Shown one piece after another: positions 1 through 3,000 of a DNA stretch of 13,223 bases (positions are counted from its first letter, which is position 1; every line of letters starts with the position of its first letter). The stretch lies in the IMG/VR virus record IMGVR_UViG_2529293223_000006, positions 1 to 13,223 of that record; one strand, written 5' to 3'. Source of the DNA: a virus. Its lineage: Duplodnaviria > Heunggongvirae > Uroviricota > Caudoviricetes. The position numbers were made by a program.

Positions 1-3000
1 ATTCACCGGCATAGCTGTCCAGTCGCGGCGGGTGAATCCTTCAAGCTGACGGTATTCACTGCCGGTAACGCGCCCTTTTTGTTTCACTACTTCCGGCAGT
101 TTTTTCATGGCATACCGGACAACATCATAGGAAGGCATCACCTCCAGCATGTATGGTTCGTCCGCATGGCGACGCTGCCATTCCGCGACAAAATCCTCGT
201 AGGCTTCTGACATGGGTCTGCCATTCGCCTGGCGATACTGCGCCAGAAATTCAGGCAGCCAGCTAATTTCTTCCGGTTTTATTTCGTCGCGCTTTCCTGG
301 TGCCAGTAACAGCAGTCGTTCTGCGGCATTCTGTGCTTTGTTAAACGCAGCTATCCAACGTTTGAGCGTAATTGCGCTCAGAGTTCGCTCTTTTCCTTTA
401 CGGGCATTAGCAGTAATGACCAAAGATTCCAGGCGTTCTTCCAGGTTACCCTGCGCTAACCTCGCCACAATAAAACGTATCGCGCTGGCACAACTGAATC
501 CCGGCTCCTGGCTAATTCGCAGAACTTCACAGACAAGAGCAATGCGTGCTTCTGCAACTTTACGTTGATTTTCCGTAAGCGCATTCAGACGTTCTTCTAC
601 CAGTTGTGGCGAACCGCGATATGCTTCGACCGCCTGAACGGCATCAGGGTTACGCGCCTTCCTGGTAACAACCTTTACCTCAGAAACGTTGTTCTCTCTA
701 GCCACTAACTGTTCCACGTATCGTTCACGTAGTGCCTGTTGAGTAATTTTCGGCAAGCAATCAATGTGATACTCAATGGCTTTTGTACCTTCACGGCGAC
801 GACTTACGTCACTACGTCCATGAGAAAAACGTTGTAATGCCTGACGGATGCCTTTTGTAGTTACAGGCATTCCAGGTACGCCGAGCAGTTCATTTACGGT
901 AACGTACGGCTGCATATCACGACGCCTTCCTGATAAATCCATCGTTACGATACCGACTGGGCCAGATGGTTTCTGGCGGGACACCTATAGCGTCAGAGAT
1001 AACGCGTTCGTATTTTTTGTTTGGCGTACGAACTACCGCTTTCAGTGAATCCTTCGCATAACCAGCATGGAGTGAAAGCTCCCGAAAGGAAGACCACCCA
1101 TTATCTTTGAGTGCCTGCTGAATCATCAGCGAAGGCCAATCGCGGCCAAGATCTTCTCTTTGTCTCATATTTCCTTTACCCTACAAAATTACCCGCGCGG
1201 ATATTCGCGTGGATATCCGAGTGAACAAAGCATAAGAACCAAAAGAACAAAAATCAAGGTATTTTCATTCTTTTCTTAGCTGTTTTGTTTATTTGTTTGA
1301 ATTCAAATAGATACAAAGAAAGGAACTTTTAATGAACAAAGAACCAAATGGTTCTTTTCCTGATGAGAAAAAAGAACCTTTAATTCAGCGGCTGTTTTCT
1401 CTGGTGGAGCGGTATCCATCTCGATCAGAAGCGGCCAGAGCTTGGGGAATTAACATATCAACCCTGAACAACTACTATAAACGCAGACACTTGAATCCAA
1501 TCCCCAGACCCAATCAGCTACAAAAAATTGCAGATAAAGAAGGTGTATCATTGGAGTGGTTAACAACTGGTCAAGGCCAAAAACCAAGTTTTGATGCGAA
1601 TAGCAGCAAAGAACAAAAGAACAAAAGAGCAAAAGAGCAAAAGGCTATGACTGGTGAGCCCCCATCAACCAAAGGGGCTAACATTGATTCAAGTTTATTA
1701 ACTCTCATTGAGATTTTGTCTGACGATGAAAAAAATGCACTTTTTGAAGTATTAGCAAGAAAAGGCGTAGAAACTTTATTACGCTTGTTAGATAAGGAAA
1801 CACAAGAATTGCTGCAACTGGAGGGCCGTAAACGCCTAGCTGCGTTGATGCTAGTCGATATGCCCGACGAGCAAGTCAGAGAGATTTTGGAAGAGATTGA
1901 AGCTAGTATTCTCTCAGAGAGTGTAAAAGCGAAGGTGGGCTAGTTCAATTAGCCCACAGCAAGTGGCTCTTAAAGACATTTAAAATGCTAAAATTGCAGT
2001 AACACGCAGTATCAAATATTTTTTCGTTTTTAGCTTTCTTTGCGATAGTAGTATCAAATCGCATGTTGTGCGCATAACACTGTTTTACGCCATAACTGTT
2101 TGTTTTATCCCATCAAATCCCGTTTAATCCACTTTTCTCCCGGATTTTTCACCAGTATCAAATAATTTACCTCGTCATAATCCCTGTAAAGCATCAGAAT
2201 GATGTCTGCATCCGCCTCTATTTCTCCGGAATTTTTCAGGTCTGAGTTCATGGGACGTTTATTGGGTCTGGACTCCACACCGCGGGAGAGCTGGCTCAGC
2301 GCAATCAACGGAAAACCACCGGATTTTGCCAGGCCTTTAAGCCCCTTTGAGATTTCACCCACGGCAAGGTCATGACGCCCCGTGGTTCGGGTTTTTATCA
2401 GCCCGAGATAATCAACCACCACCAGCGCCGTTTCCGGATGTTTAATCAGATGGTGTTTCGTTGTTGCGCATATCTCATCAATGGTCAGGTTCGCCTGGTC
2501 CACCATCCAGATATTGCGCCCGGTCATCCGCCCCACCCCTTGTGAGAAACGCGCCCAGTCTTCATCTTCAAAGTGAGCCACAGATTTCAGGCGTGATACT
2601 GGCATCCCTCCAGCCGCAGACACCATACGTTCACCAATCTGGATGTTCGCCATCTCCATGGTGAACAGAAGCACACCATGCCCCTGCTCAGTCACCTTGT
2701 CGATGATGTCCAGCGCAAGTTCGGTTTTCCCCATCGAAGGACGAGCCGCAATAAATACCAGGTCGCCGGGCTCCATGCCGCCTGTTTTTGCGTCCAGTTC
2801 ATCAATACCGGTCATCAACGTCCTGGATTTCTCCAGTCCCTGACTCCGGCATTCAACACGCTCAACCACCTCCGGAAGCACATCATCAATATGTACCGAC
2901 TGAATAACGCCCTTTTCCGTCGACAATGAGGCCATCATGTTCTGTGCATCCTTAAGAGCATCTTCAGCTGCTTCACAGGTATGCGCATCGCGTAATTTCT

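What the first reader, a model, noticed from the sequence alone, without database searches (positions are those of the whole stretch)
2100..2180. Mu-like prophage end appears to lie inside the 3' end of a DnaB-family helicase gene
The helicase ORF keeps the DnaB C-terminal motif up to ..ILMLYRD but then ends after about 20 codons that look atypical. The DNA encoding that tail, read on the minus strand, resembles the Mu left end as I recall it (CCGGGAGaaaagTGGATTAaaCGGGATtTGATGGG versus Mu CCGGGAGGACATTGGATTATTCGGGATCTGATGGG). The neighbouring genes form a Mu-type early region. This implies a transposable prophage inserted into the replication gene of another prophage, with the junction near 2170-2180.
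Basis: partly seen in the sequence, partly recalled or inferred. Interest (0 to 1): 0.7.

Follow-up and report, generated by a model that had tools for sequence, protein, structure and literature searches.

The report
Mu-like prophage end splits helicase gene
A transposable (Mu-like) prophage has landed inside the helicase gene of an older, decayed prophage in Shigella boydii; this is an ordinary event, but this phage lineage has unusual ends (TA instead of TG/CA) and makes a 4-bp rather than a 5-bp target duplication.

Summary
The window is Shigella boydii 5216-82 contig AFGE01000028.1.

- **Helicase side.** Similarity to intact lambdoid-prophage DnaB-type helicase genes stops exactly at base 2180. 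The closest is 100% identical over the last 301 bp and encodes 463 aa.
- **Phage side.** Similarity to left ends of a Mu-like phage lineage starts exactly at base 2179. This holds for Yersinia phage vB_YpM_5 and for 8 E. coli prophages, each in a different host gene. The same phage also sits at 3 other chromosomal sites in other assemblies.
- **Effect on the helicase.** It keeps residues 1-389 and loses 74 C-terminal residues, including KQRNG. It gains 24 accidental codons read from the phage end.
- **Resemblance to Mu.** It is real but confined to one 43-bp block (36/43 identical, at the same distance from the terminus), which is probably the packaging site.
- **Differences from Mu.** The transposase is 22% identical to MuA. 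The termini are 5'-TA...TA-3'. The end repeats have a TTTGATAC core. The target duplication is 4 bp in 4 of 4 relatives.
- **The host prophage.** Only a 1.4-kb remnant survives, cut on its other side by IS600.
- **Not resolved.** The right end and this insertion's own duplication could not be found.

The parts
1..915 (-). First 305 codons of the Mu-type transposase A gene. It runs off the window start; the full gene encodes 698 aa in L016.
   Evidence: Pfam HTH_Tnp_Mu_1 E=2e-7. The full-length protein has Mu-transpos_C. It is 22% identical to MuA and 89% identical to Yersinia phage vB_YpM_5 A.
917..1168 (-). ner-like early regulator (83 aa).
   Evidence: 36% identity to Mu Ner, E=6e-11. Pfam HTH_35 E=7e-14.
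1332..1943 (+). c-type immunity repressor (203 aa), transcribed toward the prophage left end as in Mu.
   Evidence: Weak C-terminal similarity to Mu c (31% over 72 aa). Phage_CI_repr HTH scores just below the Pfam cut-off. Some sources name it 'bacteriophage CI repressor'.
1944..2179 (-). Non-coding left end (attL) of the Mu-like prophage, 236 bp. The terminus is at 2179 and reads 5'-TATGACGAGGTAAATTA... on the minus strand.
   Evidence: Similarity to the left ends of vB_YpM_5 and 8 E. coli prophages begins at exactly this base, and the flanks all differ. The identical end sits at 4 different flanks in other assemblies, and one contig ends exactly at the terminus.
2155..2162 (-). TTTGATAC core of the putative transposase-binding site L1, at element positions 18-25.
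   Evidence: The window has 4 copies against 0.38 expected, and 3 of them lie here in one orientation. The right end of a related prophage has its R1 core at the same 18-25 distance from its terminus.
2051..2058 (-). TTTGATAC core of putative site L2, at element positions 122-129.
   Evidence: The spacing resembles Mu L1...L2, L3 (D108 annotation).
2009..2016 (-). TTTGATAC core of putative site L3, at element positions 164-171.
2107..2149 (-). The only block shared with the true Mu, D108 and SfMu left ends (element 31-73, Mu 25-67). It is probably the pac (packaging) site.
   Evidence: 36/43 identity, far above shuffles. The small terminase is 99% identical between Mu and vB_YpM_5 while A is 22% identical. 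The pac assignment rests on my recollection of Groenen & van de Putte 1985 and was not verified here.
2179..2180 (.). Insertion junction. Base 2180 is the last helicase base (end of codon D389) and base 2179 is the first base of the prophage.
2105..2179 (-). 24 read-through codons plus a TAA stop, encoded by the prophage end (YDEVNYLILVKNPGEKWIKRDLMG*).
2180..3346 (-). Codons 1-389 of a lambdoid-prophage DnaB-type replicative helicase. The 74 C-terminal residues are missing.
   Evidence: 97.4% identical to the EIEC CFSAN029787 prophage gene, and 100% over the last 301 bp. DnaB_C profile coverage is 2-215/255, against 2-247/255 in the intact protein. Alignment.
3343..3578 (-). Last 78 codons of the DnaC-like helicase-loader gene. 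The rest was removed by IS600.
   Evidence: 96% identity to residues 215-292 of the 292-aa loader. Similarity to the intact prophage stops at 3578.
3576..4836 (+). An IS600 copy that bounds the lambdoid remnant. A second, inverted copy lies at 6159-7419.
   Evidence: Self-match. 99.5% identical to elements that PGAP annotates as 'IS3-like element IS600 family transposase'.

Best explanation
Base 2179 is the left terminus of a Mu-type transposable prophage. The prophage integrated by DDE transposition into the 3' part of a DnaB-type helicase gene belonging to an older lambdoid prophage in a Shigella boydii lineage.

Inferred mechanism:
1. The phage A transposase, with the MuB-like ATPase, binds the TTTGATAC repeats at both ends.
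2. It cleaves at the terminal TA and joins the ends to target phosphates staggered by 4 bp.
3. Repair of the gaps leaves a 4-bp duplication, predicted here to be GGAT.

The insertion falls exactly between codons 389 and 390. The helicase reading frame therefore runs 24 codons into the phage end and stops inside the conserved pac-like block. The resulting 413-aa protein lacks the last 74 residues, including the KQRNG segment, and is most likely non-functional. The fused tail is an accident of insertion, not a domain.

Shown here: the breakpoint, the identity of both partners, the mobility of the element, the structure of its ends, and a 4-bp duplication in relatives.
Inferred: the chemistry (by homology with Mu), the loss of helicase function, and that this particular copy is a simple insertion.
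For: - **Breakpoint.** Matches to intact helicase genes in 228 E. coli genomes and about 100 phage records all end at window 2180. No E. coli genome spans the junction. The intact allele reads ...TACAGGGAT|GAAGTGTAC... and continues for 74 codons.
- **Element terminus.** 13 left ends of the lineage share the terminus TAT(G/A)..GAGGTAAAT with unrelated flanks. The interrupted or flanking genes include mscM, ppsR, ycjO/P, rlmB, ydcO, glpT, patD, norV and T6SS genes.
- **Early region.** It is Mu-type in content and order.
- **Ends.** Three TTTGATAC repeats lie at each end, with L1 and R1 at the same distance from their termini.
- **Target duplication.** It is 4 bp in 4 of 4 complete relatives. 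One empty site was rebuilt and matched intact glpT at 196/196.
- **Not an assembly artefact.** The same junction is present in 2 NCBI assemblies and 6 sequencing runs.
Against: - The right end of this copy and its target duplication were not found. The source genome is not in the scanned collections, so this absence says little.
- No remnant ORF for the helicase 3' end turned up in the protein collection. That weakly allows for the 3' part having been lost or moved.
- Transposase activity, the 4-bp stagger and the role of the TTTGATAC repeats are inferred from sequence only.
Confidence: 0.9

Rival explanations
1. The left end reached the helicase gene by a secondary event rather than a simple insertion. 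Examples are a deletion or inversion mediated by replicative transposition, or recombination between two copies of the prophage or of IS600. In that case the right end would not abut the helicase 3' remnant, and no matching duplication would exist.
For: - The locus is heavily rearranged: the lambdoid remnant is only 1.4 kb and is cut by IS600.
- No helicase 3' remnant ORF was found in the protein collection.
- Assemblies break inside the prophage, which suggests repeats or several copies.
Against: - The junction is base-precise at the element terminus, as in 12 other insertions. That is expected of any transposition product, simple insertion included.
- Remnants are often not called as genes, and the source genome was not searchable at the DNA level.
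Confidence: 0.12
2. The short helicase with its odd tail is a natural C-terminal variant of the phage helicase, and the resemblance to Mu is coincidental.
For: GenBank lists the ORF as an ordinary protein, EGI97735.1.
Against: - DNA identity to intact alleles drops from 100% to nothing at one base.
- From that base on, the DNA is the left end of a mobile phage found at many other sites.
- The DnaB_C domain is cut at profile position 215 of 255.
Confidence: 0.01
3. The junction is an assembly chimera.
For: The contig ends inside the transposase gene, and the genome is rich in repeats.
Against: The identical fusion gene occurs in two independent NCBI assemblies, one on a 1.1-Mb contig, and in Logan assemblies of 6 sequencing runs.
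Confidence: 0.01

Closest known systems
Bacteriophage Mu (also D108 and SfMu), left end attL with the c-ner-A-B early region
   Same: - Same gene order and orientation: the repressor is transcribed toward the end, and ner, A and B away from it.
- Three end repeats in the first 170 bp or so.
- A 43-bp block at the same distance from the terminus (36/43).
- Insertion into many unrelated sites.
- In the relative vB_YpM_5 the small terminase is 99% identical to Mu gp27.
   Different: - A is 22% identical and B is 39% identical; c is barely related.
- The terminus is TA, not TG.
- The repeat core is TTTGATAC rather than the Mu CGAAA(A)-type consensus (annotation).
- The target duplication is 4 bp, not 5 bp.
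Yersinia phage vB_YpM_5 / vB_YpM_6 (genus Muvirus; PMC10434027)
   Same: - Closest sequenced phages. The left end is 85% identical over 303 bp and starts at the same base.
- A is 89% identical.
- The right end has the same ...GCGCGCTTTA terminus.
   Different: - The immunity region differs; similarity is lost between window 639 and 1878.
- The published description does not define the ends or the duplication.
TA-TA transposable prophages of Leptospira (PMC8705779)
   Same: Non-canonical 5'-TA...TA-3' termini on a Mu/B3-type transposable prophage.
   Different: - Those have a 6-bp duplication and B3/Tn552-type transposases, and they are in spirochaetes.
- Here the duplication is 4 bp and the phage is an enterobacterial Muvirus-like phage.
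D3112/DMS3-type Pseudomonas transposable phages and P. fluorescens phage VW-6B
   Same: Their transposases are closer to this A protein than MuA is: VW-6B 48%, D3112-like about 31%.
   Different: They are different phages (siphovirus-type, different late genes). Their ends were not compared here.
Lambdoid prophage replication module (phiP27 L18/L19; Stx1 phages; EIEC CFSAN029787 prophage)
   Same: The helicase and loader remnants are 91-100% identical at the DNA level to these modules.
   Different: Here only 1.4 kb survives. The helicase lacks its last 74 codons and the loader lacks its first 214.

Membership tests
Mu-family transposable phage end (attL) | Terminal 5'-TG...CA-3' dinucleotides (stated as conserved in all described Mu/B3-like phages, PMC8705779) | tested here: not met
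   The terminus is 5'-TA (TATGACG / TATAGAG) in 13 left ends and ...TTTA-3' in 5 right ends.
Mu-family transposable phage end (attL) | Several same-orientation transposase-binding repeats within about 180 bp of the end, mirrored at the other end | tested here: met
   TTTGATAC at element positions 18-25, 122-129 and 164-171. In the window, 0 of 200 shuffles reach the observed count. A relative's right end has them at 18-25, 40-47 and 75-82. Binding itself was not tested.
Mu-family transposable phage end (attL) | Adjacent early region c (toward the end), ner, A (DDE transposase with Mu DNA-binding domain), B (AAA+ ATPase) | tested here: met
Mu-family transposable phage end (attL) | Insertion at many unrelated sites with a short target duplication (5 bp in Mu) | tested here: inconclusive
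   Many sites: met. The duplication is 4 bp, not 5 bp, in 4 of 4 relatives. This copy's own right end was not found.
Mu-family transposable phage end (attL) | Nucleotide similarity to Mu attL | tested here: inconclusive
   Only a 43-bp block (36/43) is similar. The rest of the 236 bp is unalignable.
DnaB-family replicative helicase (functional gene) | Complete RecA-like C-terminal domain, including the KQRNG segment downstream of YRDEVY | tested here: not met
   The Pfam DnaB_C match stops at profile position 215/255. 74 residues, including ITKQRNGSLG, are replaced by 24 unrelated ones. That this segment carries the arginine finger is my general knowledge of DnaB helicases.
DnaB-family replicative helicase (functional gene) | N-terminal DnaB domain and Walker-type ATPase core | tested here: met
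   PF00772 and PF03796/AAA_25 matches. Residues 1-389 are collinear with the intact proteins, with 11 substitutions against the CFSAN029787 allele.
Genus Muvirus (whole-phage relationship) | Late (head, tail, packaging) genes closely related to Mu | not testable with these tools
   The late genes of this copy lie outside the window and beyond the end of contig L016. The relative vB_YpM_5 is classified as Muvirus and has a 99% identical small terminase.

The most novel reading that the evidence does not exclude
The element represents an undescribed enterobacterial Muvirus-like lineage found in Shigella, E. coli and Yersinia. It kept Mu's packaging signal and terminase but carries a different transposition module. 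Its A protein is 22% identical to MuA and is nearer to Pseudomonas transposable-phage transposases. Its end repeats have a TTTGATAC core, its termini are 5'-TA...TA-3', and it makes a 4-bp target duplication. That combination is not among the TG-CA / 5-bp (Mu) or 6-bp (B3, Leptospira) types listed in the literature read here.
Probability: 0.55. Interest if true: 0.5.

Novelty: new variant of a known kind. Interest (0 to 1): 0.33.

Why it matters
**The insertion itself** is routine genome archaeology.
- It shows one mobile element disabling another in a Shigella genome.
- It shows that a GenBank 'helicase' (EGI97735.1) is a truncated fusion artefact.

**The element is more useful.**
- It is a natural module swap within Mu-like phages: the packaging signal is retained while the transposase and end sequences are replaced.
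- Its non-canonical TA termini and 4-bp stagger offer a comparison system for how DDE transpososomes set the terminal-nucleotide requirement and the target stagger.
- They also matter for prophage-boundary software that assumes TG...CA ends and a 5-bp duplication.

Tried and rejected
- **Right junction, DNA pattern scans.** I searched for GATTTTGCGCGCTTTA-N(0-8)-GAAGTGTACAACCCGGATAC in viral contigs and genome contigs and found no hits. The left-junction pattern is also absent from both. The source genome is therefore not in these collections and the negative result is uninformative.
- **Right junction, protein route.** A search with the 74 missing helicase residues returned only contig-edge fragments and unrelated fusions, none starting at EVYNPDT. 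A search with the 85-aa gene downstream of the helicase returned over 170 variants. The one looked up (P0027, the closest match at 98%, whose names include Shigella sonnei) sits next to an intact helicase. I stopped there as a low-yield fishing trip.
- **Literature support for the pac location in Mu.** Only the citation of Groenen & van de Putte 1985 was found, not the coordinates (the Harshey review was not held). The pac assignment therefore remains recollection plus the terminase argument.
- **A 'TG' terminus at 2177.** I considered and rejected this. Relatives with TATAG have no TG there, and the 17-nt spacing to the first repeat is symmetric only if the termini are TA.
- **A 5-bp duplication.** I considered and rejected this for the lineage. 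No register gives 5 matching bases in any of the 4 pairs, and the 4-bp reconstruction matches the empty site exactly.

Full report
**Source and layout.** The window is 100% identical to positions 124-13346 (reverse strand) of contig AFGE01000028.1 of assembly GCA_000211975.2. NCBI lists the helicase ORF as EGI97735.1, 'dnaB-like helicase C terminal domain protein [Shigella boydii 5216-82]'. From left to right the window holds:
- the early region and left end of a Mu-like prophage (1-2179);
- a 1.4-kb remnant of a lambdoid replication module (2180-3578);
- two inverted IS600 copies (3576-4836 and 6159-7419) around a tape-measure gene fragment;
- tail-fibre gene remnants;
- an ipaH-type gene and a few other genes.

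**The observation.** ORF 2105..3346 (-) encodes 413 aa with a DnaB N-terminal domain and a DnaB_C domain. Aligned with the intact helicases of phage phiP27 and of a prophage of EIEC strain CFSAN029787 (both 463 aa), it is collinear to residue 389 (...ADADIILMLYRD). It then carries 24 unrelated residues. The intact proteins continue with 74 residues, EVYNPDTQARGIAEINITKQRNGSLG.... The Pfam DnaB_C match covers profile positions 2-215 of 255 here, against 2-247 in the intact protein.

Mu 31-65 is CCGGGAGGACATTGGATTATTCGGGATCTGATGGG, and the window matches it at 29/35 positions (2143..2109, minus strand). The best local alignment is 36/43, with score 51 against 18.9 +/- 2.2 (maximum 28) in 300 shuffles. 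D108 and SfMu behave alike.

**Where the junction is.** Three independent searches agree to the base.
- Matches to helicase genes of phiP27, Stx phages and 228 E. coli genomes all end at window 2180. The best are 100% identical over the last 301 bp. None of 5,426 E. coli genomes spans the junction.
- Matches to Mu-like phage left ends begin at window 2179.
- Read on the minus strand, the window is ...CTTTACAGGGAT|TATGACGAGGTAAATTATTTGATAC... The intact gene reads ...CTTTACAGGGAT GAAGTGTACAACCCG....

The break falls between codons 389 and 390.

**What the inserted element is.**
- *Terminus.* The left ends of Yersinia phage vB_YpM_5 and of eight E. coli prophages, each interrupting or abutting a different gene, share the terminus TAT(G/A)..GAGGTAAAT. 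Their flanks are unrelated. The genes include mscM, a kinase/pyrophosphorylase gene next to ppsA, the ycjO region, rlmB, an epimerase gene, ydcO, glpT and patD.
- *Mobility.* The very same phage, with an identical c repressor and identical end, is found at three further flanks in other Shigella/E. coli assemblies: norV and two T6SS genes. One contig ends exactly at the terminus. The element is therefore mobile, and base 2179 is its first base.
- *Early region.* It is Mu-type in content and order. The 203-aa repressor is transcribed toward the end. The Ner homologue is 36% identical to Mu Ner. The 698-aa transposase has the Mu DNA-binding and Mu-transposase C-terminal domains. A MuB-like ATPase (39% identical) follows, then kil, gam, gemA and mor.

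**How far it is from Mu.**
- *Transposase.* It is only 22% identical to MuA. It is 89% identical to that of vB_YpM_5. Among other phages it is nearest to P. fluorescens phage VW-6B (48%) and D3112/DMS3-type phages (about 31%).
- *End sequences.* Outside the 43-bp block, the end does not align with Mu attL.
- *End repeats.* Instead of Mu's CGAAA-type sites, the end has three same-orientation TTTGATAC cores at element positions 18-25, 122-129 and 164-171 (window 2162-2155, 2058-2051, 2016-2009). The window holds 4 copies against 0.38 expected, and no shuffle out of 200 reaches that count. The right end of a related prophage has three copies at 18-25, 40-47 and 75-82 from its terminus. The outermost sites are therefore equidistant from termini defined as 5'-TA...TA-3'.
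- *Target duplication.* In four E. coli prophages with both ends available the flanking repeat is 4 bp (TAAG, CGCG, GTGA, AGCC), and no register gives 5. Removing the element and one 4-bp copy from the glpT insertion restores a sequence that matches intact glpT at 196/196 in other genomes.
- *Literature.* A 2021 survey states that TG-CA ends are conserved in all Mu- and B3-like phages described up to then. It gives 5 bp for Mu and 6 bp for B3, and reports TA-TA ends as a novelty of some Leptospira prophages (PMC8705779). The paper describing vB_YpM_5 does not define the ends.

**Why one block still looks like Mu.** The shared block lies at nearly the same distance from the terminus in both phages (31-73 here, 25-67 in Mu). 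The small terminase subunit (Mu gp27) is 99% identical between Mu and vB_YpM_5, while A is 22% and B is 39% identical. As I recall, the Mu pac site was mapped to this part of the left end (Groenen & van de Putte 1985). I could confirm that this paper exists but not its coordinates. The simplest reading is that the block is the packaging signal. It would have been retained because the packaging genes were retained, while the transposition module and its end sites were exchanged. This is inference.

**Consequence for the helicase and its prophage.** The truncated protein lacks the segment downstream of YRDEVY that includes KQRNG. From general knowledge of DnaB-family helicases, this part of the ATPase fold carries the arginine finger, so the protein is very probably inactive. 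The 24-residue tail is read-through into non-coding phage DNA and ends at a TAA inside the conserved block. The host prophage was or became defunct in any case:
- only 2180-3578 survives (97.4% identical to the CFSAN029787 prophage);
- the DnaC-like loader gene keeps just its last 78 of 292 codons, because IS600 cuts it at about 3578.

The order of the IS600 and Mu-like events cannot be told from the window.

**What remains open.** The right end of this copy lies outside the window and outside contig L016, which stops about 22 kb into the prophage. Pattern scans for the predicted right junction found nothing, but the left junction is also absent from those collections, so they do not contain the source genome. 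Protein-level searches for a helicase 3' remnant, or for a Mu-adjacent copy of the downstream gene, also failed. A simple insertion with a GGAT duplication is therefore the most likely history. A secondary Mu- or IS-mediated rearrangement is not excluded, and I give it about 0.12.

**Verdict.** As an event it is ordinary: a transposable prophage nested in a decayed prophage of an IS-ridden Shigella genome. The element itself is a noteworthy variant of the Mu kind. It has TA-TA termini, a 4-bp duplication and a divergent transposase with new end repeats, but a Mu-like packaging block.

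Noticed in passing
window 1944-2179; L004/L015, L005/L020, L009/L021, L010/L022: This Mu-like lineage has 5'-TA...TA-3' termini and a 4-bp target duplication (TAAG, CGCG, GTGA, AGCC) instead of the canonical TG...CA and 5 bp. One empty site (glpT) was reconstructed and matched exactly.
   Followed up: yes
window 2107-2149 (-); Mu (L012) 25-67: The only DNA conserved with the real Mu, D108 and SfMu left ends is a 43-bp block at the same distance from the terminus. The small terminase is 99% identical between Mu and vB_YpM_5 while the transposase is 22% identical, which suggests the block is the pac site.
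   Followed up: partly
L024-L032 (other assemblies): The identical phage (same c repressor, same left end) sits at three other chromosomal sites in other Shigella/E. coli assemblies: norV and two type VI secretion genes. This indicates recent mobility.
   Followed up: partly
window 3576-4836 and 6159-7419: Two 1,261-bp IS600 copies in inverted orientation bracket a phage tape-measure gene fragment (ORF 4821-6152). The left copy truncates the DnaC-like loader gene at about 3578, and the ORF 3343-3624 starts inside the IS.
   Followed up: partly
window 9939-11582 (-): An IpaH-type gene (LRR plus NEL E3-ligase domain, 547 aa) lies next to tail-fibre remnants. The otherwise 99.4% identical contig of a second assembly (L016) diverges from the window at 9772 and lacks it.
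   Followed up: no
L001 (MT374853.1) 4650-4732: The GenBank record of Yersinia phage vB_YpM_5 is a circularised assembly. The right end (...GCGCGCTTTA) and the left end (TATGAAGAGG...) are joined through about 83 bp that are probably packaged host DNA. The record is neither permuted to the true ends nor annotated for them.
   Followed up: partly
window 2105-3346 (-): The truncated helicase / phage-end fusion is deposited as an ordinary protein (EGI97735.1) and clusters with 463-466-aa intact helicases. This is an annotation artefact.
   Followed up: yes
window 1935-1958: An inverted repeat, GTGGGCTA-N6-TTAGCCCAC, overlaps the stop codon of the c repressor gene. It could be a terminator hairpin. 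It was not analysed.
   Followed up: no
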